The notes under the pieces were generated by a model that made no database searches, was not told the DNA's origin, and was given only the letters and a program-made list of their open reading frames with translations. The translations under genes and the position numbers were made by a program. From NCBI GenBank assembly GCA_964637295.1, contig CAZWWE010000002.1, positions 117,952 through 181,951 on the forward strand: a DNA stretch of 64,000 nt, read 5' to 3'. Below, in pieces: positions 28,357 to 50,271 of this stretch (its first letter is position 1; every line of letters starts with the position of its first letter). The stretch comes from an uncultured Pseudomonadales bacterium. Lineage in GTDB: Bacteria; Patescibacteriota; Microgenomatia; UBA1400; PJMF01.

Positions 28357-29325
28357 ATGAAAAAAAACATTTTAACCGGTGATCGTCCGACTGGCCAATT
28401 GCACATTGGTCATTATTGTGGTGCTTTGAAAAATCGCGTGGCTCTACAAGATAAATATAACACCTACATCATGATCGCCGATGTTCAAGCTTTAACAGAT
28501 AACTTCAATAATCCAGAAAAAGTAAGTCGAAACGTTTTTGAAGTAGCTAAAGATAATTTGGCTGTCGGCATTGATCCTGAAAAAAGCACGCTTTTTATTC
28601 AGTCTATGATCCCAGAAATTGCAGAACTAACTGTTTTTTATTCCAATTTAGTTACCATTGATCGTCTCAAAAGAAATCCTACCGTTAAAGAAGAAATTCA
28701 ACAAAAAAAAGAATTGTTCAAAGATGATGTAACCTTTGGTTTTTTGGGCTATCCAATTAGTCAAGCGGCTGATATTACCGCTTTTCAAGCTGATTTGGTT
28801 CCAGTAGGGGCTGATCAATTGCCGATGATTGAACAAACTAGAGAAATTGTCAGAAAGTTTAACCGCATTTATGGCGAAACTTTGAAAGAACCAGAGGCTA
28901 AGCTTGGTGATTTCCCACGAGTTCTAGGTATGGATGGGCGTAAAATGGGCAAAAGTTTAGGTAATGCGATTACTTTCACTGATTCGACTGCAGAGATTGA
29001 ACAAAAAATTAAAGGAGCTTTAACTGACCAAATTGGTGGCCAAAATTTAATTAATCTACTTGGTCAATTTTCAGAAAACGACCAAGAAATAGTTCGATTT
29101 AATCAAGAATTCAAAGCTGGCTCAATTAGATATGCCGAGCTTAAACCATTTTTGGCAGCAGCCATCGCCAAAAAGCTTCAGCCCATTCAAGAAAAAAGAG
29201 CTTATTATGATCAACGACCCAAATTAGTTGAGGAAATATTGATGGCTGGCACCCAAAAAGCGCGCGCGCTTGCCAAAGAAACTCTAGCCAAAGTCAAAGA
29301 GAAAATGTTTATCAATTATTTTTGA
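28357..29325 (+). CDS. trpS: tryptophan--tRNA ligase
   Basis: HIGH motif TGQLHIGHY and KMSKS variant KMGKS. Length 322 aa. Confidence 0.9.
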   Translation: MKKNILTGDRPTGQLHIGHYCGALKNRVALQDKYNTYIMIADVQALTDNFNNPEKVSRNVFEVAKDNLAVGIDPEKSTLFIQSMIPEIAELTVFYSNLVTIDRLKRNPTVKEEIQQKKELFKDDVTFGFLGYPISQAADITAFQADLVPVGADQLPMIEQTREIVRKFNRIYGETLKEPEAKLGDFPRVLGMDGRKMGKSLGNAITFTDSTAEIEQKIKGALTDQIGGQNLINLLGQFSENDQEIVRFNQEFKAGSIRYAELKPFLAAAIAKKLQPIQEKRAYYDQRPKLVEEILMAGTQKARALAKETLAKVKEKMFINYF

Positions 29326-29332
29326 AAAATAA

Positions 29333-29590
29333 TTAAGCTTTAACCACATTAACTACGGTTTTGCCAAATTTTTTGCTGAATTTAACTACGCCATCAATCA
29401 TCGAAAAAACCGTCCAATCGTGACCAAATTTAACACCTTTGCCGGCTTTATACTTGGCTCCTTTTTGACGCACGATAATTTGACCAACTGCAATTTTTTC
29501 ACCAGCAAATTTTTTCACCCCGAAACGTTTACCATGACGAGCGCCTTGTGAATGTTGTGTAACGCTACCTGAACCTTTAACATGTGCCAT
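29333..29590 (-). CDS. rpmA: 50S ribosomal protein L27
   Basis: MAHVKGSGSVTQHSQGARHGKRFGVK... There is no N-terminal propeptide extension. Confidence 0.95.
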   Translation of the reverse strand: MAHVKGSGSVTQHSQGARHGKRFGVKKFAGEKIAVGQIIVRQKGAKYKAGKGVKFGHDWTVFSMIDGVVKFSKKFGKTVVNVVKA

Positions 29591-29612
29591 ATGATTTACC
29601 CTTTTTTAGATA

Positions 29613-30773
29613 TTATTTGAAACGGTTAAAACTAAACAAACAAATTTGTCTAGCCACTCTTGCTCCTTCTCGAGCATAGACGACCGGATCGACCAAAAGA
29701 TTGTATCCTTTTGTCTTTAATTTGTCAATTAAACTTTCGAGAGAATAAGTTTTTCTAGCTGTTTGCACTTGAGGCAAAATAATTGCCACTACTGCGCCGT
29801 CATTTAAAATATTAGTAAAAGATTTGAAAGAACCTAAATACATTTTTTCAAGGCCTTTAAAAACATTAGCTAGTTCCTGATCTCTAGGAGTTTGTTTTCC
29901 CAAAAATGGCTCAGTAACTAATAAGTCGACCTTTTGAGCAAAATTTTCTGGATTGATGTGACTGGCATCCATGTAAAAAATCTTGCTCTCTATATCAATA
30001 TCATATTCTTTTTTAAACCATTCTAAATTATCTCTGCTGCCAAAAACTGCTTTTTGATCTATGTCTGAACCAAGCACATTTAAATGCCTCATGCCTGCTT
30101 CAAGTAAAACCGTACCTGTACCACAAAAAGGATCATAGAGTAAAGGCTGGCCAGTGTTTTTTTGCTGCCACAAGCCAAAAGCAATATTAACCATCATACG
30201 AGCAACTTTAGGCGGCAACATGCCTTTTTTACGATCAGCATAAGGCTTATTGCGATCGCGATTAGTCCAATCGTCAATGTCTTGAACGCCTTTGATTTGG
30301 GCTAATAATAATTTACCTGCTTCTATTAAATTAAAACTTAATAGCTCGGTGGCCTCTGACTGATGCGACAACAAAGCGCTTTCACTTGGATTACTTGAAA
30401 AATAGCGAGCTTTTTTACCGTTTTCTTTGATTAAATCTTTGATCTGAGCATTGCTAATCGATCTTTGTCCTTTGCCCACTTGAGTAAAAGTAAAATATGG
30501 AGTGTTTGTCTGAGCTAACAATATGGCAACTATTTCTTCAATGTATTTTTCATCTTCAATTTGGTTGTCGATTTCTTTGATTATCTCAAAAATTTTAACC
30601 GTACCGCCCAAAACATGAATCATCGAGTCAACGACGGCTGGCTCTGCTGCAAAAAGAAAAAGGTGTTCATCTAGCTGTTGCAAAACGAATTGAGGATAAG
30701 TCAATTCAAACTCTAATTTTGACAAAAGAGTAGTATTGCCAAAAAGAACGAGAAATTTAGACATAGAAACCAA
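29613..30773 (-). CDS. class I SAM-dependent RNA methyltransferase, Trm11/RlmL (THUMP-associated)-like
   Basis: Motif I DPFCGTGTVLLEAGM, preceded by LPPKVARMMVNIA, as in N2-guanine/N6-adenine RNA methyltransferases. Located between rplU and rpmA. Confidence 0.55.
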   Translation of the reverse strand: MVSMSKFLVLFGNTTLLSKLEFELTYPQFVLQQLDEHLFLFAAEPAVVDSMIHVLGGTVKIFEIIKEIDNQIEDEKYIEEIVAILLAQTNTPYFTFTQVGKGQRSISNAQIKDLIKENGKKARYFSSNPSESALLSHQSEATELLSFNLIEAGKLLLAQIKGVQDIDDWTNRDRNKPYADRKKGMLPPKVARMMVNIAFGLWQQKNTGQPLLYDPFCGTGTVLLEAGMRHLNVLGSDIDQKAVFGSRDNLEWFKKEYDIDIESKIFYMDASHINPENFAQKVDLLVTEPFLGKQTPRDQELANVFKGLEKMYLGSFKSFTNILNDGAVVAIILPQVQTARKTYSLESLIDKLKTKGYNLLVDPVVYAREGARVARQICLFSFNRFK

Positions 30774-30782
30774 TTCTGCTGA

Positions 30783-31097
30783 TTAAGCAATTTTTAGCAC
30801 TTTAACTGTGCTTTGATATTGGCGATGACCCTGGACTTTTCTGTATCTAGATTTAGATTTATATTTAGCCACACGAATCTTTTCGCCCTTTTGATTGGAA
30901 ACTAATTCGCAAGAAACTTTGGCACCATCGACTAAAGGCTGTCCAATCTTACGATCTGCTCCGCTGGCCACCAATAAAACATCGCTTACTTCAAATTTGC
31001 TACCAGCTTCTTTATCTAATTGATCAACCAAAAACTCATCGCCCTCTTGAACCATGAATTGTTTTCCTTGTAATTGAATGATTGCGTACTTTGACAT
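30783..31097 (-). CDS. rplU: 50S ribosomal protein L21
   Basis: MSKYAIIQLQGKQFMVQEGDEF.. Length 104 aa. Confidence 0.9.
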   Translation of the reverse strand: MSKYAIIQLQGKQFMVQEGDEFLVDQLDKEAGSKFEVSDVLLVASGADRKIGQPLVDGAKVSCELVSNQKGEKIRVAKYKSKSRYRKVQGHRQYQSTVKVLKIA

Positions 31098-31121
31098 AAC
31101 GAGCTTGAATTATATCAGATG

Positions 31122-32216
31122 CTAATAAAAAATGAAGCTTGGCTTTTTCTTAAAATCGCTGGCGATTGATTGAGCAACTCCAAGAGCCAAAAATAAGGAG
31201 ATGACGCTACTGCCACCATAAGACAAAAAGGGTAAGGTAATACCCGTAATTGGTAAAAGAGCCAAATTCATGCCGATATTGATCAAGATTTGCACCAAAA
31301 ACATAGTGAACAAAACTAAAAGATAAAGTTTTTGAGCAAAATCATCTACCCTGTAAGCTAAAAATAAAAGAAAGAACAGTAACAAAAAATACATCGATAA
31401 TAAAAAGATGGCCCCTACAAAGCCCCATTCTTCCGCATAAGAAGCAAAAATAAAGTCTGTTTGTCTTTCTGGTAAAAAACGCAAATGGGACTGAACGCCT
31501 TGACCAATACCACGCCCCCAGAACTGTCCGCTACCTACTGCAATTAAGGCCTGTTTGGCATTGTAGGTGCTACTACTTTCTTTGCTCGTCATTTGCAAGT
31601 CGGTGGAAGTCTGATGCAAATGCAAAAATCCCAACAGCCTGTTTCTTTGATAATCCTTAAAAACTAAAAACCACAGTGCCATGATTACCAGCAATCCAAT
31701 TGAAAATAAAGTTAAAATTTGAGCAAAACTAAGATGATTAAAAAATAAAAAAATAGACAAAGCAGCCCCAAAAACTAAAACTGTACCGAAATCTGGCTCT
31801 AATAAAATCAAAATGGCTGGCAAGGAAATGATGATCAAGGTTTGCAATAGCAACAACCAAGTAAATTTTTGTTCTTTTTTGAAAAAACTAACTAGATATA
31901 GGGCAGTAATTGGCACAGCCAACTGAGAGGGTTGAAATTTAAAACCAAAAGGCAATACTATCCAAGCCGAGATACCTCTGGTAATTGAGCCATAAATTAA
32001 TAAGAACAATAAAGATAAATTAAGCAACAAATAAAGCCATTTAGAAATTCTCACATGAAAAGTAAAAGATAGTTTGCGAGTAACAAAAAAAACTACAAAA
32101 GCTAAAGCAAAGGCAAATGCCTGTTTATAAAGTAAATTGGGTACAATACTGCGCAGCGTGGTCAAAGACAACACTGTAAAAAGAAACAATATCCCAAACA
32201 AAAAATATTTACGCAT
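31122..32216 (-). CDS. SEDS-family peptidoglycan glycosyltransferase (RodA/FtsW-like), second copy
   Basis: About 10 TM helices. Conserved SEDS C-terminal region FIFASYAEEWGFVGAIFLL....PFLSYGGSS. Confidence 0.8.
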   Translation of the reverse strand: MRKYFLFGILFLFTVLSLTTLRSIVPNLLYKQAFAFALAFVVFFVTRKLSFTFHVRISKWLYLLLNLSLLFLLIYGSITRGISAWIVLPFGFKFQPSQLAVPITALYLVSFFKKEQKFTWLLLLQTLIIISLPAILILLEPDFGTVLVFGAALSIFLFFNHLSFAQILTLFSIGLLVIMALWFLVFKDYQRNRLLGFLHLHQTSTDLQMTSKESSSTYNAKQALIAVGSGQFWGRGIGQGVQSHLRFLPERQTDFIFASYAEEWGFVGAIFLLSMYFLLLFFLLFLAYRVDDFAQKLYLLVLFTMFLVQILINIGMNLALLPITGITLPFLSYGGSSVISLFLALGVAQSIASDFKKKPSFIFY

Positions 32217-32229
32217 TTATTTTTTTACT

Positions 32230-35085
32230 TTAATCAAGTAATAATTTGATTCCATCACCTGGTCTAATTTTAGTGTTGGTTTTTGCTTCAATTTCTTGCT
32301 TAAAAGCTGCTGGCCAACTCATTAGTTGTAGATCAACCACTTGATTAAGGTCCAGCTTAGCTTCTTTACGCAAATCCTGAATCTGACGAATTAATTCTCT
32401 GGCTTCACCTTCTGCTTTAAGTTCGGCAGTTAAGTTAAAATCATAATCAACCATTAAATCACCAGTTTCCTGAAGCCACTCAACTTTTTTCACATTGATT
32501 TCGGCTTTGAGTAATTCTTCAAGTTCTTTTCGATAAATCATTTTACCAAAACCACTCACTCTCAAGCTCGCCAAAGGCTGACGAGCTTTCACCTGTTTAA
32601 GTTTACGCAGACTATGAGCTGATTCAACAACTTTACGCAAAGTTACCATCGAACTTTCTAGTTCTTGATCTACTAATTGCTCTCTATATCGAGGAAATTC
32701 GGCCAAGTGAATCGAACTTTGTTCATCAATCAAGCTGTGATGAATGAGTTCAGTAAAAAATGGCACAATTGGCGCAAAAGCTTTGGCTAATTCATATAAA
32801 ACTGTTGCAAAAACTTGACTAGCTTCTTGATTATCTTTGGCTTTAATTCTTTCTCTGGAAGAACGCAGATACCAAGTCGATAATTCATCGATGAATGGTG
32901 CTAAAAGTCGACTAGCTTTCATGACATCGAATTTGTCTAATTGTTGCGTAAGTTCCTTAATCACGCTTTGCAAACGACTTATAATCCAACGGTCTAACAA
33001 ATTACTTGGCTTTTGACCAACTGCTAAATCAAAAAAACCAGCTTCTTGATTGGCAAAAGTTTTATAAAAAGCCAAAACATTCCACCAAATCACGAATACT
33101 CGACGACGTAAATTAGCGACATCTTTTTCTGCAAAATTAAGTGTTTCAGCCTTAACAGCTGGAGAAGACATTAAATAAAGACGCAGCGCATCAGCTCCAT
33201 ATTTCTCTAAAACTTCTCCTGGTTCTGGATAGTTTTTGAGACGCTTGCTCATTTTTTTACCATCTTCAGCCATGATTAAACCTGTACACATGACGTTTTT
33301 GAAAGCACCGCTCTTTTTCTCGCTGCCTAAAGTTAAAGCTGTCGCTAAAACGTGCAAAGTGTAAAACCAACCACGAGTCTGATCCTGGCCTTCAGAAATA
33401 AAATCAGCTGGGAAAGAACGCTTAAAAGCCTCTTGGTTGTCAAAAGGAAAATGTAATTCACCATAAGGCATGGAACCTGACTCAAACCAACAATCTAACA
33501 CTTCTGGAACGTGATGATAAGTCTTGCCATCTTTTTTGAATTCAATTTTATCAACAATGTGCTTATGCAAATCGCTAACTTTTTGTCCAGATAATTCTTC
33601 TAGCTCTGTAGCAGAGCCCACGCAAATAAAGTCGCCAGCTTCACTTTCCCAAACTGGCAAGGGAGTGCCCCAATAACGATTGCGGGAAATCGCCCAATCT
33701 CGAGCACCCTCCAACCATTTACCAAAACGACCATGCTTAATGTGATCTGGTTCCCAATTAATTTTTTCGTTATTGACTAAAAGTTGGTCTTTGAAAGCAC
33801 TGACCTTAACATACCAGCTGTCAGTCGCATAATTAAGCAGAGGAGTGTCACAGCGCCAACAATGTGGATAACTATGTGCGATTTTTTTCTTGGCAAAAAG
33901 GCTACCATGGGCCGCTAAATATTTAATGATTTCAATATCAGTCCCTTGAGGATTATCTTTTGGCTTGACTTCCATGCCTGCAAAATCGCTCACCTCACTT
34001 TTGAAACGACCGTCCATACCTACATGTTGTAAAAGCTCAATATTTTCGGCTTGACCCACATTGTAGTCATCTTCACCAAAAGCCGGAGCGATGTGCACAA
34101 TGCCCGTTCCTTCTTCCAGAGTCACAAAATCACCAGTCACAATACGAAAAGATTTAGCCCAATTAGCAAAATAATGAAAAATAGGCTCATAAGTCAAACC
34201 AATTAGTTTGTTTCCCTTAAAACTTGGGCCCATTACTTCAAATTTTTTATCTGCCATGACTTCTGTGAGACGTTCTTTGGCTATTACAAATAAACCATCT
34301 TCTTCTTCAACTTTAACTAAAACATAATCCAGATCAGCGCCAACAGCTAATAAAACATTTCCTGGTAATGTCCAGGGTGTAGTTGTCCAAGCAAGGGCAT
34401 AAATTTTTTCCTCAGTTTCTAGATTAAAAGCTTGAGCAGCGCCATGCAGTTCAAATTTAGCAAAAACAGAAAGATCTTTAACATCTTTATAACCCTGAGT
34501 AACTTCAAAATTTGATAGAGGAGTACCACAACGAGGACAGATGTGCATCGATTTGTGACTTTTATAGATTAGCCCTTTGTCCCAAAGTTGACGGAAAACC
34601 CACCAAACTGTCTCCATGAAATTTTTATCCATGGTTTTGTAAGCACGATCCATGTCGATCCAGCGTCCAATGCGACGAATAGTTTTTTTCCATTCCTCTG
34701 CATAAGTCAAAACTGTTTGACGACAAGCCTCATTGAATTTATCTACCCCATAGCTCTCGATGTCTTTTTTGCTATCTAAATTTAGTTCTTTTTCAATAAT
34801 GTTTTCGACAGGCAAACCATGACAATCCCAGCCCCAAACACGACGCACTCTTTTACCCTTCATGGTCTGATAGCGAGGAATGAGATCTTTGATAATTGAT
34901 TGCATTAAATGACCATAGTGAGGCAAACCAGTAGCAAAGGGGGGGCCATCATAAAAAGAAAAAGAATTATCTATGCTTCTTTGTTCAATTGATTTAGCAA
35001 AAGTTTGATCGCTGTCCCAAAAATTGAGAATTTCTTGCTCAAGCTCTGGAAAATTTGGCACTTGTCTAAAATCTGTAATTTTCAT
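32230..35085 (-). CDS. ileS: isoleucine--tRNA ligase
   Basis: HIGH variant PYGHLMQS, KMSKS motif KMSKRLKN, and a large CP1 editing insertion. Length 951 aa. Confidence 0.9.
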   Translation of the reverse strand: MKITDFRQVPNFPELEQEILNFWDSDQTFAKSIEQRSIDNSFSFYDGPPFATGLPHYGHLMQSIIKDLIPRYQTMKGKRVRRVWGWDCHGLPVENIIEKELNLDSKKDIESYGVDKFNEACRQTVLTYAEEWKKTIRRIGRWIDMDRAYKTMDKNFMETVWWVFRQLWDKGLIYKSHKSMHICPRCGTPLSNFEVTQGYKDVKDLSVFAKFELHGAAQAFNLETEEKIYALAWTTTPWTLPGNVLLAVGADLDYVLVKVEEEDGLFVIAKERLTEVMADKKFEVMGPSFKGNKLIGLTYEPIFHYFANWAKSFRIVTGDFVTLEEGTGIVHIAPAFGEDDYNVGQAENIELLQHVGMDGRFKSEVSDFAGMEVKPKDNPQGTDIEIIKYLAAHGSLFAKKKIAHSYPHCWRCDTPLLNYATDSWYVKVSAFKDQLLVNNEKINWEPDHIKHGRFGKWLEGARDWAISRNRYWGTPLPVWESEAGDFICVGSATELEELSGQKVSDLHKHIVDKIEFKKDGKTYHHVPEVLDCWFESGSMPYGELHFPFDNQEAFKRSFPADFISEGQDQTRGWFYTLHVLATALTLGSEKKSGAFKNVMCTGLIMAEDGKKMSKRLKNYPEPGEVLEKYGADALRLYLMSSPAVKAETLNFAEKDVANLRRRVFVIWWNVLAFYKTFANQEAGFFDLAVGQKPSNLLDRWIISRLQSVIKELTQQLDKFDVMKASRLLAPFIDELSTWYLRSSRERIKAKDNQEASQVFATVLYELAKAFAPIVPFFTELIHHSLIDEQSSIHLAEFPRYREQLVDQELESSMVTLRKVVESAHSLRKLKQVKARQPLASLRVSGFGKMIYRKELEELLKAEINVKKVEWLQETGDLMVDYDFNLTAELKAEGEARELIRQIQDLRKEAKLDLNQVVDLQLMSWPAAFKQEIEAKTNTKIRPGDGIKLLLD

Positions 35086-35369
35086 TTACTCCTTTTTATA
35101 TAATGTTACAAAATCAAAAAAGCCTGCCTAAAAACGAAAAGATCGTTTCTAAGCAGGCTTATCTTATTAAAGATAAAGGTACCAGCCGCTTTTTAGATTT
35201 GCCAACTTGCAAATCTTTACTTAATTGCGAGTGATTACGGACTCTGCCGGCCTGGTCTATTTTTTGATCGTTTGCTTAAAATTTGAGCAAAGAAAAAATT
35301 TCTTCAGGCACCTTGCCATTGATAGTGGCTAGAGCGGTTTTAATTTTAATTAACAAAGAAATTATAGCA
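35086..35369 (-). promoter_or_regulatory. candidate T-box riboswitch leader of ileS (promoter + T-box-like motif + terminator)
   Basis: An extended -10 TGCTATAAT (35361-35369, minus) opens a ~265-nt leader. A T-box-like motif AAGCGGCUGGUACC lies at 35178-35190 (minus), consistent with the consensus AGGGUGGNACC. Its UGGU could pair with the ACCA end of tRNA-Ile. The flanking AAGCGG / CUGCUU can form an antiterminator helix whose 3' strand overlaps the terminator's 5' arm. An AUC triplet (Ile codon) sits in a GUAAUCACUC context that could be a specifier. Confidence 0.45.
35113..35160 (-). terminator. Rho-independent terminator hairpin immediately upstream of the ileS RBS
   Basis: Minus-strand sequence AAGCCTGCTTAGAAACG-atcttt-CGTTTTTAGGCAGGCTT forms a ~17-bp stem (with G-U wobbles) followed by TTTTTTG. 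It ends ~28 nt before the ileS start codon. Confidence 0.6.
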
Positions 35370-35383
35370 CGAAAAGCACCATC

Positions 35384-35635
35384 TTAAATCAAATTCAAAA
35401 TCAACTGAACAATTTTGTCTTTATCTTTAGGATTACTACTTGCAACCAAGATCGCAAGAGCGGTGAGAGTAGAAGAGGTTAGTATAGCGAAAGCTTCAAA
35501 AGCCTGATTTTTGGTCATTAATTGAAATTTGAAAGCTGAAAGGCTTTCAATTATCTTTTCGGTGGTTAATTCAACTTTTTTCTTGGTTAACTTCCCAGTC
35601 ACTAAAGCATTTTTATCGTAAGCCTCAAGAGACAA
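35384..35635 (-). CDS. hypothetical small protein (possibly the C-terminal remnant of the adjacent RhuM-like gene)
   Basis: 83-aa ORF with no recognisable motif. It starts 53 nt downstream of the RhuM-like ORF, in a different frame. Confidence 0.3.
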   Translation of the reverse strand: MSLEAYDKNALVTGKLTKKKVELTTEKIIESLSAFKFQLMTKNQAFEAFAILTSSTLTALAILVASSNPKDKDKIVQLILNLI

Positions 35636-35688
35636 CCAGGTCTCAGCAAAAGAAGAGATGAGAGAAATAAAATCTTGTGGATCAATAT

Positions 35689-36174
35689 TTACATTTGCAG
35701 GTAGAAGTTTTTTATATTCGCTATCGTTGCTGAAAATTTATCGTAATTTTTCGCAACCTTTTTCTTATCAATGACAAAGCCGGAAAAAATGTATTGACGC
35801 AAAGTTTTGGTTGCCCATTGGCGAAATTGAGTGGCTTTTTTAGAATTGACACGATAGCCAGTAGACAAAATAACATCCAGATTATAATGTTTTACATTAC
35901 GTGCAATTTCTCTCGAGCCTTCTTTTTGAACTATCCGGAATTTCCGGATAGTTGATTTCTCCAGCAGCTCCTGAGTTTTAAAAATATTTTGAATATGTTC
36001 ATTAATGGTTTTTACACTAACATCAAAAGCCAGGGCAATTTGCGTCTGAGTAGCCCATATCGTTTCATGTAAAATATCACCTTTCAACTCAATCGCACCA
36101 GATCTAGCTTGATAAATAATGGATTTAGAGTTTTGGGCTTTATTCGGCATGGAGATGGTCTTAGAATAAGACAA
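35689..36174 (-). CDS. RhuM-family (virulence-protein RhuM-like) protein, N-terminal part; likely truncated
   Basis: The segment NVKHYNLDVILSTGYRVNSKKATQFRQWATKTLRQYI matches the conserved core of the Pfam Virulence_RhuM family. At 161 aa it is about half the usual length. Confidence 0.55.
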   Translation of the reverse strand: MSYSKTISMPNKAQNSKSIIYQARSGAIELKGDILHETIWATQTQIALAFDVSVKTINEHIQNIFKTQELLEKSTIRKFRIVQKEGSREIARNVKHYNLDVILSTGYRVNSKKATQFRQWATKTLRQYIFSGFVIDKKKVAKNYDKFSATIANIKNFYLQM

Positions 36175-49905: not shown

Positions 49906-49942
49906 AGTTTTATCTTATCATAATTTGAAATATGAATGACTG

Positions 49943-50015
49943 AGCCAAAGGTGGGAGTCGAACCCACGACCGACGGTTTACGATACCGTTGCTCTACCAA
50001 CTGAGCTACTTTGGC
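49943..50015 (-). tRNA. tRNA-Thr (anticodon CGU)
   Basis: A manual fold gives a 73-nt cloverleaf GCCAAAG..TTCGACT..CTTTGGC-T. The anticodon loop is AUCGUAA. CCA is not encoded. Confidence 0.85.
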
Positions 50016-50036
50016 ATATAGGTACTAGTACTTTAA

Positions 50037-50110
50037 TGGAGCGACCGAAGGGAGTCGAACCCTCACCTCAAACTTGGGAAGTTCGCATTCTACCGCTGAA
50101 CTACGGTCGC
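50037..50110 (-). tRNA. tRNA-Gly (anticodon CCC)
   Basis: A manual fold gives a 74-nt cloverleaf GCGACCG..anticodon loop UUCCCAA..GGTTCGACTCC..CGGTCGC-T-CCA. CCA is encoded. Confidence 0.85.
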
Positions 50111-50195
50111 AAATTAATGATACTGCGAAAGAATTATAGCAAACTTTGAGAAAATCATCTCAGAGAGAGAGAAGAAAAATTGTGTAACTTAAAGC

Positions 50196-50271
50196 TGGCG
50201 ACCTCGATCGGGATCGAACCGACGATCTTCTCCGTGACAGGGAGACATGTTAACCACTACACCACGAGGCC
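50196..50271 (-). tRNA. tRNA-Asp (anticodon GUC)
   Basis: A manual fold gives a 76-nt cloverleaf GGCCTCG..anticodon loop CUGUCAC..GGTTCGATCC..CGAGGTC-G-CCA. The discriminator is G, as expected for Asp. Confidence 0.85.

What the first reader, a model, noticed from the sequence alone, without database searches (positions are those of the whole stretch)
35086..35369. Candidate T-box riboswitch controlling ileS (and possibly a rodA-rplU-rpmA unit behind it)
The leader has four linked elements. (1) An extended -10 TGCTATAAT sits ~265 nt upstream of ileS on the minus strand. (2) A T-box-like motif AAGCGGCUGGUACC (35178-35190, minus) matches about 11 of 13 defined positions of the consensus AANNAGGGUGGNACC. 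Its UGGU bulge is complementary to the ACCA end expected for tRNA-Ile. (3) The AAGCGG stretch upstream of the bulge can pair with CUGCUU. That CUGCUU is also part of the 5' arm of a strong intrinsic terminator (35113-35160) placed ~28 nt before the ileS start codon. This is the antiterminator/terminator competition that defines T-box leaders. (4) An AUC triplet (Ile codon) occurs in a purine-flanked GUAAUCACUC context that could be the specifier loop. ileS is T-box-regulated in Bacillus, and ileS lies downstream of the division cluster here as in Firmicutes. ileS, the SEDS gene, rplU, the methyltransferase and rpmA follow with 13-24-nt gaps. Ribosomal protein genes may therefore sit behind an amino-acid-sensing attenuator unless internal promoters exist.
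Basis: partly seen in the sequence, partly recalled or inferred. Interest (0 to 1): 0.6.

Follow-up and report, generated by a model that had tools for sequence, protein, structure and literature searches.

The report
Short-stem T-box attenuator before ileS
The leader of the isoleucyl-tRNA synthetase gene in this Patescibacteria (CPR) genome is very probably a real tRNA-sensing T-box riboswitch, of an unusual build that joins the very short codon-presenting stem known from actinobacterial translational T-boxes to a classical transcription terminator, and the standard Rfam model does not detect it.

Summary
Rfam's T-box model gives no hit, even at E<=10. But the leader is conserved upstream of ileS in 16 other Patescibacteria loci. 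The structure I derived is 96% base-paired, with compensatory changes at 15 of 22 pairs (shuffles 7.2+-1.5; 0 of 500 reach 15).

The architecture is a conserved -10 promoter, a 4-6 bp Stem I with an invariant AUC in its apical loop, Stem II with an S-turn, a IIA/B pseudoknot with an invariant CCGUAA F-box, an AAG linker, and an A1-UGGUACC-A2 antiterminator. The 3' strand of A1 lies inside the 5' arm of a strong terminator. [quoted passage not shown]

Its AUC (35233-35235) lies between the F-box and the pseudoknot strand and reads ACC in two lineages. The supported specifier is at 35321-35323.

This is a Class III ("ultrashort Stem I") decoding module joined to a transcription terminator, a pairing the literature treats as atypical. 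I found no paper in the searchable library mentioning T-boxes in these bacteria. tRNA binding is untested.

The parts
35361..35369 (-). Extended -10 promoter element TGCTATAAT. The expected transcription start is near 35354.
   Evidence: A -10 hexamer with at least 5 of 6 matches lies 16-34 nt 5' of Stem I in all 16 relatives with upstream sequence, and 10 carry the TG extension.
35310..35338 (-). Stem I region. It contains a base helix ACC (35338-35336) / GGU (35312-35310), an asymmetric internal loop GCUCUA / AA at the position of the K-turn, a 4-bp helix GCCA (35329-35326) / UGGC (35318-35315), and a 7-nt apical loop CUAUCAA (35325-35319).
   Evidence: Stem I is 100% paired with double changes at 3 of 4 pairs. 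Nine different stem sequences occur in the 17 members. The K-turn reading is inconclusive.
35321..35323 (-). Specifier AUC (Ile codon, complementary to anticodon GAU), followed by A35320.
   Evidence: AUC is invariant at loop positions 3-5 in 17 of 17 members while the other loop positions vary. It falls at positions 16-18 when A35338 is numbered 1, the same numbers as the N. farcinica Specifier (10.1101/2025.07.25.666911).
35250..35309 (-). Stem II. The proximal helix is GCCUG (35309-35305) / CAGGC (35254-35250). The S-turn strands are AAGAAA (35304-35299) and UAGAC (35259-35255). The distal hairpin (35298-35260) is variable.
   Evidence: All 5 proximal pairs covary and are 100% paired. AGAA and UA[G/A]A are conserved. 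The spacing from the Specifier A to the S-turn G is 21 nt in 13 of 17 members, as in N. farcinica (PMC7583486).
35229..35249 (-). Stem IIA/B pseudoknot. The IIA hairpin is CGG-CAGAGU-CCG (35249-35238). The F-box is CCGUAA (35240-35235). Loop nucleotides GAGU (35244-35241) pair with ACUC (35232-35229).
   Evidence: IIA is invariant. IIB has double changes at 3 of 4 pairs and is effectively 3 bp. The F-box is invariant in 17 of 17 members. The spacing from the S-turn 3' strand to the F-box is 18 nt in 16 of 17, as in N. farcinica 69->87.
35195..35226 (-). Purine-rich linker AAUUAAGUAA (35226-35217) containing the conserved AAG ('RAG') motif, followed by Stem III, AGAUUUGC-AAGUUG-GCAAAUCU (35216-35195).
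   Evidence: AAG is invariant in the 17 members. Stem III varies in sequence and is absent in some members. The RAG motif and Stem III are described in PMC11297988 and PMC7583486.
35151..35191 (-). Antiterminator. It consists of the A1 5' strand AAGC-GGC (35191-35185), the T-box bulge UGGUACC (35184-35178) plus one U, the A2 hairpin UUAUCUU-UAAU-AAGAUAA (35176-35159), and the A1 3' strand GCC-U-GCUU (35158-35151).
   Evidence: The nascent transcript folds into this structure without constraints in the window (-21.1 kcal/mol). With the bulge held open, all 17 members form A1/A2. A2 has double changes at 6 of 7 pairs, and A1 differs between lineages.
35110..35160 (-). Intrinsic terminator: an 18-bp hairpin (35160-35120) and the U-tract UUUUUUGAUUUU (35121-35110). 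Its 5' arm contains the whole A1 3' strand.
   Evidence: (97% paired). All 17 members have a hairpin plus a U-run.
35083..35093 (-). Shine-Dalgarno AGGAG (35093-35089) and the ileS start codon (35085-35083). Neither is part of the terminator hairpin.
   Evidence: The SD begins 17 nt after the U-tract.
29333..35085 (-). Genes behind the attenuator: ileS (35085-32230), a SEDS FtsW/RodA-family gene (32216-31122), rplU/L21 (31097-30783), a UPF0020-type methyltransferase (30773-29613) and rpmA/L27 (29590-29333).
   Evidence: Pfam assignments are. Gaps are 13, 24, 9 and 22 nt. The order is conserved in L002, L003, L006, L008, L016, L081, L084 and L086. Co-transcription is inferred, not shown.

Best explanation
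This is a tRNA-Ile-responsive T-box riboswitch that controls ileS, and probably the genes packed behind it, by transcription attenuation.

Transcription starts about 7 nt after the conserved -10 element. The first roughly 110 nt fold into a decoding module like that of actinobacterial Class III ('ultrashort Stem I') ileS T-boxes. This module consists of a short Stem I presenting AUC in its apical loop, Stem II whose S-turn would clamp the codon-anticodon duplex, and a IIA/B pseudoknot carrying the F-box.

The 3' domain holds the linker with AAG, Stem III, and A1-UGGUACC-A2. If uncharged tRNA-Ile is bound, its ACCA 3' end pairs with UGGU in the bulge and stabilises the antiterminator, so RNA polymerase reads through into ileS. 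Without that stabilisation the A1 3' strand is captured by the much more stable terminator hairpin and transcription stops at the U-tract near 35113. The default state is OFF.

Shown here: the conserved structure with covariation, the mutually exclusive helices, the invariant AUC and UGGUACC, the spacing match to a solved T-box, and the conserved promoter and synteny. Inferred: tRNA-Ile binding, sensing of charging, and co-transcription of the downstream genes.
For: - Family: 17 ileS leaders share the element.
- Covariation: on the MAFFT alignment of 13 sequences, 96.2% of cells pair and 15 of 30 pairs change on both sides, against 6.2+-1.4 in shuffles (0 of 500) and 0-3 in slid controls. On the 17-member alignment, 96.4% pair and 15 of 22 pairs change on both sides, against 7.2+-1.5 (0 of 500). 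Stem II covaries at 5 of 5 pairs.
- Specifier: AUC is invariant in the apical loop above nine different stem sequences.
- Discriminator: UGGUACC is invariant. A1 and A2 form in all 17 members when the bulge is held open, and the A1 3' strand always lies inside the terminator 5' arm.
- Energies: in the window the nascent transcript folds into the antiterminator by itself (-21.1 kcal/mol). The full 3' domain prefers the terminator (-40.2 against -20.4 kcal/mol). All 17 members have a terminator plus U-run.
- Match to a solved T-box: the Specifier A to S-turn G spacing is 21 nt in 13 of 17 members. The S-turn A to F-box C spacing is 18 nt in 16 of 17. Both equal the N. farcinica numbering 16->37 and 69->87 (PMC7583486; 10.1101/2025.07.25.666911). 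The motifs AGAA / (G)UAGA, CCGUAA (N. farcinica CCGUCA), AAG (RAG) and a 3-bp loop-linker pseudoknot match published descriptions (PMC7583486, PMC11297988).
- Promoter: a -10 element is conserved 16-34 nt 5' of Stem I.
- Gene context: ileS lies downstream wherever downstream sequence is available.
Against: - Rfam RF00230 gives no hit in the window (gathering threshold, and E<=10 on 501 nt) or in relatives. This is explained by the missing long Stem I, but it remains a failed formal test.
- No tRNA-Ile gene is in the held DNA, so the anticodon GAU and discriminator A73 of this organism could not be checked.
- The T-box sequence departs from the consensus outside the bulge: CGGC-UGGUACC-UUU against AGGG-UGGNACC-GCG.
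- The literature says transcriptional T-boxes generally need the elbow-binding Stem I platform, which is absent here (PMC7583486).
- In 10 of 17 members the unconstrained nascent fold is not the antiterminator.
- For the 9 loci found by DNA pattern, the invariance of CCGUAA and GGYUGGUACCUU is partly by construction.
- There are no experimental data of any kind.
Confidence: 0.88

Rival explanations
1. The element is a T-box relative, but the decision is not made, or not only made, by intrinsic termination. The hairpin plus U-tract might mainly act after transcription, for example on RNA stability or processing. Or the switch might be slow and reversible, as in translational T-boxes, with the terminator leaky.
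For: Short-Stem-I T-boxes studied so far are translational and are thought to lack the fast tRNA capture needed for a co-transcriptional decision (PMC7583486, PMC10482949, 10.1101/2023.02.28.530422). Nothing is known about the termination efficiency of the RNA polymerase of these bacteria.
Against: The hairpin is a textbook intrinsic terminator: 18 bp followed by U6 or more. It is conserved with its U-run in 17 of 17 members. The SD lies 17 nt downstream of the U-tract and takes no part in either alternative structure. No sequestrator helix can be drawn.
Confidence: 0.06
2. The element is a conserved attenuator that senses something other than tRNA, such as a protein (for example an autoregulating L21, L27 or IleRS) or a small molecule. 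The T-box-like motifs would then be convergent or vestigial.
For: There is no Rfam hit. Ribosomal protein genes lie in the same gene string. tRNA binding is untested.
Against: This rival would need coincidental invariance of AUC in an apical loop upstream of ileS and of UGGUACC in a bulge between two helices. It would also need an S-turn, an F-box and an AAG motif at the exact spacings of a solved ileS T-box. No other riboswitch family matches.
Confidence: 0.03
3. It is an ordinary terminator of the upstream gene, or a leader-peptide attenuator, and the T-box resemblance is due to chance.
For: TGGTACC alone occurs at the chance rate in the window. A 14-codon ORF (AUGGCAAGG...UAA) overlaps Stem I and Stem II in the window.
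Against: The terminator lies downstream of a conserved promoter and directly before ileS, with no room for another promoter. The 240-nt leader covaries. The small ORF has no Ile codon, and its AUG is not conserved: CGGC, GAGU and others occupy that position.
Confidence: 0.01

Closest known systems
Class III ('ultrashort Stem I') ileS T-box riboswitches of Actinobacteria (Nocardia farcinica PDB 6UFM, Mycobacterium tuberculosis 6UFG/6UFH, M. smegmatis)
   Same: - Regulates ileS.
- Specifier AUC sits in the apical loop of a short Stem I that lacks the elbow-binding double T-loop.
- Stem II has an S-turn (AGAA / GUAGA).
- A IIA/B pseudoknot carries an F-box (CCGUAA against CCGUCA).
- There is a 3-bp loop-linker pairing, an AAG (RAG) linker, Stem III, and a UGGN-ACC bulge between A1 and A2.
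- Landmark spacings are identical: Specifier to S-turn 21 nt, S-turn to F-box 18 nt (PMC7583486, PMC10482949, PMC11297988).
- The IleRS it controls is the eukaryote-like type, which is also the type in mycobacteria (from my own knowledge).
   Different: - The expression platform is an intrinsic terminator with a U-tract, not a Shine-Dalgarno sequestrator.
- The host is Patescibacteria, not Actinobacteria.
- The apical loop is 6-7 nt rather than 5-6 nt.
- The A2 helix is A/U-rich, and the T-box sequence outside the bulge is divergent.
- Stem III is absent in some members.
Class I transcriptional T-boxes of Firmicutes (Bacillus subtilis tyrS and ileS leaders; Rfam RF00230)
   Same: - Terminator/antiterminator competition, with the A1 3' strand shared with the terminator 5' arm.
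- The default state is OFF.
- A 7-nt UGGNACC bulge.
- Stem II, the IIA/B pseudoknot, the F-box and Stem III are present.
- ileS is a classical target.
   Different: - There is no long Stem I: no Specifier internal loop, no AG bulge, and no distal loop or double T-loop platform for the tRNA elbow.
- RF00230 does not score the element, even at E<=10.
Class II glyQS T-boxes
   Same: Transcriptional control by a terminator and antiterminator, and the same discriminator core.
   Different: glyQS T-boxes keep the long Stem I platform and lack Stem II and the pseudoknot. This element is the reverse: it lacks the platform and keeps Stem II and the pseudoknot.

Membership tests
T-box riboswitch (broad family) | A bulge 5'-UGGN-ACC-3' lies between helices A1 and A2, and UGGN is complementary to the tRNA 3' NCCA | tested here: met
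   UGGUACC (35184-35178) is invariant in 17 of 17 members. It is flanked by A1 (3-9 bp) and A2 (4-8 bp) in all of them. A2 and A1 covary.
T-box riboswitch (broad family) | The antiterminator or antisequestrator is mutually exclusive with a more stable terminator or sequestrator that shares a strand with it | tested here: met
   Every A1 3'-strand nucleotide lies in the terminator 5' arm in 17 of 17 members. In the window the energies are -40.2 (terminator) against -20.4 kcal/mol.
T-box riboswitch (broad family) | A Specifier triplet in Stem I matches the amino acid of the regulated gene, with C preferred at the third position | tested here: met
   AUC is invariant in the Stem I apical loop. 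ileS lies downstream in every locus that has downstream sequence.
T-box riboswitch (broad family) | Stem II carries an S-turn, followed by a IIA/B pseudoknot containing the F-box | tested here: met
   Stem II covaries at 5 of 5 pairs. IIB has double changes at 3 pairs. AGAA / UA(G/A)A and CCGUAA are conserved at the N. farcinica spacings. The three-dimensional S-turn itself was not tested.
T-box riboswitch (broad family) | A K-turn lies at the base of Stem I | tested here: inconclusive
   An asymmetric internal loop (5-6 nt / 2 nt) closed by ACC/GGU sits at the equivalent position (N. farcinica A8-C10). Tandem GA/GA, as in a standard K-turn, occurs in L002, L003 and L016. The window has UA/AA.
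T-box riboswitch (broad family) | The Rfam RF00230 covariance model scores at or above its gathering threshold | tested here: not met
   There is no T-box hit at the gathering threshold, at E<=10 on 35000-35500, or at E<=2 in five relatives. RF00230 is used only for transcriptional long-Stem-I T-boxes, and a separate model was needed for the short-Stem-I ileS class (10.1101/2020.06.17.157016).
T-box riboswitch (broad family) | The element binds uncharged cognate tRNA specifically, and read-through depends on that tRNA | not testable with these tools
   This needs in vitro transcription or binding assays.
T-box riboswitch (broad family) | The fourth bulge base is complementary to the discriminator base of the host's cognate tRNA (U with A73) | not testable with these tools
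   No tRNA-Ile gene is in the window or the held loci. A73 in bacterial tRNA-Ile is general knowledge only.
Class III / ultrashort-Stem-I ileS T-box | Stem I is short, lacks the double T-loop platform, and carries the Specifier in its apical loop | tested here: met
   Stem I is a 4-6 bp helix with a 6-7 nt loop and AUC at loop positions 3-5 in all 17 members. The published class has 5-6 nt loops (PMC10482949).
Class III / ultrashort-Stem-I ileS T-box | The decoding-module geometry matches the solved structures | tested here: met
   The Specifier A to S-turn G spacing is 21 nt in 13 of 17 members. The S-turn A to F-box C spacing is 18 nt in 16 of 17. Both equal the N. farcinica numbering. This compares spacing only, not a 3D model.
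Class III / ultrashort-Stem-I ileS T-box | The expression platform is translational (a Shine-Dalgarno sequestrator and antisequestrator) | tested here: not met
   The platform is an intrinsic terminator with a U-tract in 17 of 17 members. The SD (35093-35089) lies outside both alternative structures.
Class I transcriptional T-box (tyrS type) | [quoted passage not shown] | tested here: not met
   Only 15-19 nt lie between the two strands of the Stem I region, and no such motifs occur. De novo consensus folding also gives a 4-bp hairpin.

The most novel reading that the evidence does not exclude
This is a previously undescribed T-box lineage in Patescibacteria (CPR). It is a natural hybrid of an elbow-independent Class III decoding module and an intrinsic terminator. 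It would therefore be a kinetically controlled transcriptional T-box that works without the Stem I platform currently thought to be required for co-transcriptional tRNA capture. It would also place a SEDS cell-wall polymerase and ribosomal proteins L21 and L27 under control of tRNA-Ile charging.
Probability: 0.45. Interest if true: 0.65.

Novelty: new variant of a known kind. Interest (0 to 1): 0.55.

Why it matters
Reviews argue that transcriptional T-boxes need the long Stem I platform to capture tRNA fast enough before RNA polymerase reaches the terminator, and that short-Stem-I versions are viable because translational control has no such deadline (PMC7583486). A conserved family that joins the short Stem I to a real terminator gives a natural test of that kinetic argument. 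Possible explanations to test are a high-affinity anticodon groove, polymerase pausing, or slow polymerases in these small-genome bacteria.

It also extends T-boxes to the Candidate Phyla Radiation, where I found no report, and shows that Rfam-based surveys miss this class.

If the gene string is one transcript, isoleucine charging would be coupled to a cell-wall polymerase and two ribosomal proteins in a minimal genome.

Tried and rejected
- Rfam RF00230 and all other Rfam families: no T-box hit in the window, in five divergent relatives, or in 20 other CPR ileS loci. The weak hits (mir-2187, trpB motif, SpF19 and others) only match the terminator hairpin.
That AUC is ACC in L001 and L084 and lies inside the pseudoknot element.
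- Leader-peptide attenuation: rejected. The small ORF has no Ile codon and its start is not conserved.
- Wider distribution: my covariance model R1 found nothing on the sense strand in about 70 other ileS loci. Antisense hits are the palindromic terminator.
- Five of the 14 metagenome pattern hits (L085, L088, L091, L092, L093) were chance matches inside unrelated coding sequence.
- MAFFT and the model both misalign Stem I of L084, which has an inserted hairpin. I therefore left Stem I out of the 17-sequence count and listed it by hand.
- The RNAalifold long-range helix RAGGUGYC / GGUACCUU was considered as an alternative to Stem II. I rated it weaker because it has no double changes and is broken in L005 and L084.
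- tRNA-Ile: none in the window or the loci.
- Literature: Sherwood 2015, Battaglia 2019 and Vitreschak 2008 are not held. No printed actinobacterial T-box sequence could be found for a direct alignment, so I compared published landmark numbers instead.

Full report
**Observation.**
- TGCTATAAT is at 35369-35361 on the minus strand.
- AAGCGGCUGGUACC is at 35191-35178.
- An 18-bp hairpin at 35160-35120 is followed by UUUUUUGAUUUU and ends 24 nt before the ileS ATG at 35085.
- An AUC within GUAAUCACUC is at 35235-35233.
- The genes behind ileS follow with gaps of 13, 24, 9 and 22 nt. Pfam identifies them as a SEDS/FtsW-RodA protein, L21, a UPF0020-type methyltransferase and L27.

In this one sequence the heptamer TGGTACC is not beyond chance: it occurs 3 times in the window against 2.1 expected.

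**The proposed decisive test fails.** Rfam release 15 finds only three tRNAs in the window at gathering thresholds. A permissive scan of 35000-35500 (E<=10) lists no T-box, only weak hits to the terminator hairpin.

**Comparative evidence.** The window comes from a Patescibacteria (Microgenomates / 'Pacebacteria'-like) genome, judging by the record titles of the IleRS relatives.
- TGGTACC lies 100-175 nt upstream of ileS in all seven close relatives that have upstream sequence, and in none of 27 more distant loci. The whole leader aligns among the close relatives.
- A pattern scan of metagenome contigs added nine more ileS leaders, some with IleRS only 43-45% identical to the window's. It also gave five chance hits in unrelated coding sequence, which I discarded.
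- A covariance model built from 13 leaders scores the 17 leaders at 76-216 bits. It finds nothing else on the sense strand in 670 kb of ileS loci from other CPR lineages and other phyla.
- Rfam finds no canonical T-box in 20 of those other CPR loci, nor in five divergent members of this family.

**Architecture** (window coordinates).
- A conserved -10 element lies 16-34 nt upstream of Stem I in all 16 leaders with upstream sequence.
- An ACC/GGU base helix closes an asymmetric internal loop.
- Stem I is a 4-bp helix (GCCA/UGGC) with the apical loop CUAUCAA.
- Stem II has the proximal helix GCCUG/CAGGC and the purine-rich strands AAGAAA and UAGAC around a variable distal hairpin.
- Hairpin IIA (CGG-CAGAGU-CCG) has loop nucleotides GAGU that pair with ACUC downstream of the invariant CCGUAA.
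- A linker follows with an invariant AAG, then Stem III.
- The antiterminator is AAGC-GGC / UGGUACC-U / A2 hairpin / GCC-U-GCUU.
- The terminator's 5' arm contains GCCUGCUU.

**Covariation tests.**
- On the plain MAFFT alignment of 13 sequences, 96.2% of cells pair. Fifteen of 30 pairs change on both sides, against 6.2+-1.4 in shuffles (0 of 500) and 0-3 when partners are slid.
- On the 17-member model-guided alignment, with Stem I left out because L084 is misaligned there, 96.4% of cells pair. Fifteen of 22 pairs change on both sides, against 7.2+-1.5 (0 of 500).
- Stem II covaries at all five pairs. The pseudoknot is effectively 3 bp.
- Stem I listed by hand shows nine different stem sequences above an invariant AUC at loop positions 3-5.
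- The terminator is 97% paired.
- De novo RNAalifold recovers Stem I, IIA, A2 and the terminator.

**The switch.**
- In the window, the transcript that lacks the terminator's 3' arm folds without constraint into Stem III plus A1-bulge-A2 (-21.1 kcal/mol). The complete 3' domain prefers the terminator (-40.2 against -20.4 kcal/mol).
- All 17 members have a strong hairpin followed by a U-run.
- When UGGUACC is held unpaired, as it would be with a tRNA 3' end bound, all 17 form A1 (3-9 bp) and A2 (4-8 bp). Every A1 3'-strand nucleotide lies inside the terminator's 5' arm, although the A1 sequences differ between lineages.
- The Shine-Dalgarno sequence lies 17 nt beyond the U-tract and is in neither structure, so the platform is transcriptional.

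**Comparison with known T-boxes.** The literature defines Class III T-boxes (N. farcinica, M. tuberculosis and M. smegmatis ileS) by three features: a short Stem I without the elbow-binding double T-loop, the Specifier in a 5-6 nt apical loop, and dependence on Stem II. Classes III and IV 'mostly' regulate translation (PMC10482949). The 'ultrashort' class is described as a class of translational T-boxes, all on ileS (10.1101/2023.02.28.530422). Transcriptional T-boxes 'generally require' the long Stem I (PMC7583486).

Published N. farcinica landmarks are Specifier A16-U17-C18, A19, S-turn G37-A38-A39 and G67-U68-A69-G70-A71, and F-box 87-CCGUCA-92 (PMC7583486; 10.1101/2025.07.25.666911). Numbering the window element from A35338 puts AUC at 16-18, A at 19 and GAA at 37-39. 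Across the family, the spacing from the Specifier A to the S-turn G is 21 nt in 13 of 17 members. The spacing from the S-turn A to the F-box C is 18 nt in 16 of 17. Both are identical to N. farcinica. The AAG linker and the 3-bp loop-linker pairing match the RAG motif and pseudoknot described for M. tuberculosis (PMC11297988).

TBDB used RF00230 only for transcriptional T-boxes. It needed a custom model, applied only to Actinobacteria, for the short-Stem-I ileS class (10.1101/2020.06.17.157016). This explains the Rfam miss.

- Its specifier (35235-35233) lies between the F-box and the pseudoknot's 3' strand. It reads ACC in L001 and L084, two separate lineages.
- There is no long Stem I with AGAGA or distal-loop motifs.
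- The rest of its model stands: the promoter, the UGGU bulge, the shared strand, and ileS as the target.

**The operon idea.** The order ftsZ, leader, ileS, SEDS, rplU, methyltransferase, rpmA is conserved, even in L084. No convincing intrinsic terminator lies in the short gaps. A promoter-like site matching 11 of 12 positions at 29728-29700 (minus strand) could drive rpmA separately. Co-transcription is plausible but not shown.

**Limits.**
- There are no experimental data.
- No tRNA-Ile gene was available to check the anticodon and the discriminator base.
- Nine members were retrieved with a pattern that fixes CCGUAAYCRC and GGYUGGUACCUU, so those motifs are unbiased only in the eight protein-retrieved leaders.
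I therefore cannot exclude that a terminator-type short-Stem-I T-box has been noted before.
- Searches of the held library for T-box and riboswitch together with Patescibacteria, or with 'candidate phyla radiation', returned no paper.

**Verdict.** This is a real T-box, correctly flagged but wrongly dissected. It is best described as a Class III-type decoding module fused to an intrinsic terminator in CPR bacteria, which makes it a new variant of a known kind.

Noticed in passing
window 35384-36174 (minus strand): A fragmentary RhuM-family gene lies between ftsZ and the ileS leader. It consists of a 161-aa ORF matching only profile positions 1-85 of 252, plus a separate 83-aa ORF with no Pfam hit. 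In the relatives the ftsZ stop codon (…DVPAFLRDR*) directly abuts the leader's promoter, so this looks like a decayed insertion specific to this genome.
   Followed up: partly
window 29700-29728 (minus strand): A promoter-like site, TTGACA-17-TACAAT (11 of 12 matches), lies inside the 3' end of the methyltransferase gene, about 110 nt upstream of rpmA. It is a candidate internal promoter that would free L27 from the attenuator.
   Followed up: no
window 35307-35314 with 35176-35183 (minus strand); alignment A3 columns 24-31 with 157-164: RAGGUGYC at the Stem I / Stem II junction is complementary to the T-box bulge GGUACCUU (8 bp). RNAalifold prefers this helix to Stem II. It has no double-sided covariation and is broken in L005 and L084. 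It could be a coincidence, because GGUACC is self-complementary, or a tRNA-free state that masks the bulge.
   Followed up: partly
L001 about 2372-2393, and the equivalent sites in L006, L086 and L094: Members without Stem III can form an 8-bp hairpin, GUAUUAGC/GCUGGUAC, that buries the UGGUACC bulge. In these members the unconstrained nascent fold is this hairpin rather than the antiterminator.
   Followed up: partly
L084 669-700: This divergent member has an extra hairpin of about 30 nt (GUUGAUUUUGC-AUAA-CGCAAACUCAAC) inserted between Stem I and Stem II. The Specifier to S-turn distance is therefore 51 nt instead of 21, yet all other landmarks are kept.
   Followed up: partly
window 32230-35085 (minus strand): The regulated IleRS is the eukaryote-like 'type 2' enzyme. 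It scores 715-779 bits to eukaryotic cytoplasmic and Thermus IleRS structures, against about 300-330 bits to the S. aureus type, and it has a DUF5915 C-terminus. Mycobacterial IleRS is also of this type (from my own knowledge). The gene and its short-Stem-I leader may therefore share a history. This was not tested.
   Followed up: no
window 35293-35298 (minus strand) and the equivalent position in most relatives: A U5-U7 run begins the distal part of Stem II right after the S-turn strand in most members (GAAAUUUUUU, GAAAGCUUUUUU). It pairs with an A-run. Whether it also acts as a polymerase pause site that gives time for tRNA capture is pure speculation.
   Followed up: no
window 28357-29325 (plus strand): The trpS gene has only a 72-nt upstream gap and no leader element, and its 3' end meets that of rpmA across a 7-nt gap. 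Model R1 finds no second element in the window. So the T-box-type control seen here is not general to the aminoacyl-tRNA synthetase genes in this stretch.
   Followed up: partly
loci L004, L005, L006, L008 (record titles): Several public MAG records that carry this Patescibacteria-type locus (IleRS 66-89% identical to the window's) are titled 'uncultured Pseudomonadales'. L005, L006 and L008 have the same ftsZ-ileS synteny and the same leader. L004 is cut off before ileS, so only its IleRS could be compared. These titles look like taxonomic mislabels.
   Followed up: no
window 49942-50271 (minus strand): A cluster of three tRNA genes: Thr(CGU), Gly(CCC) and Asp(GUC). There is no tRNA-Ile in the 64 kb.
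   Followed up: no
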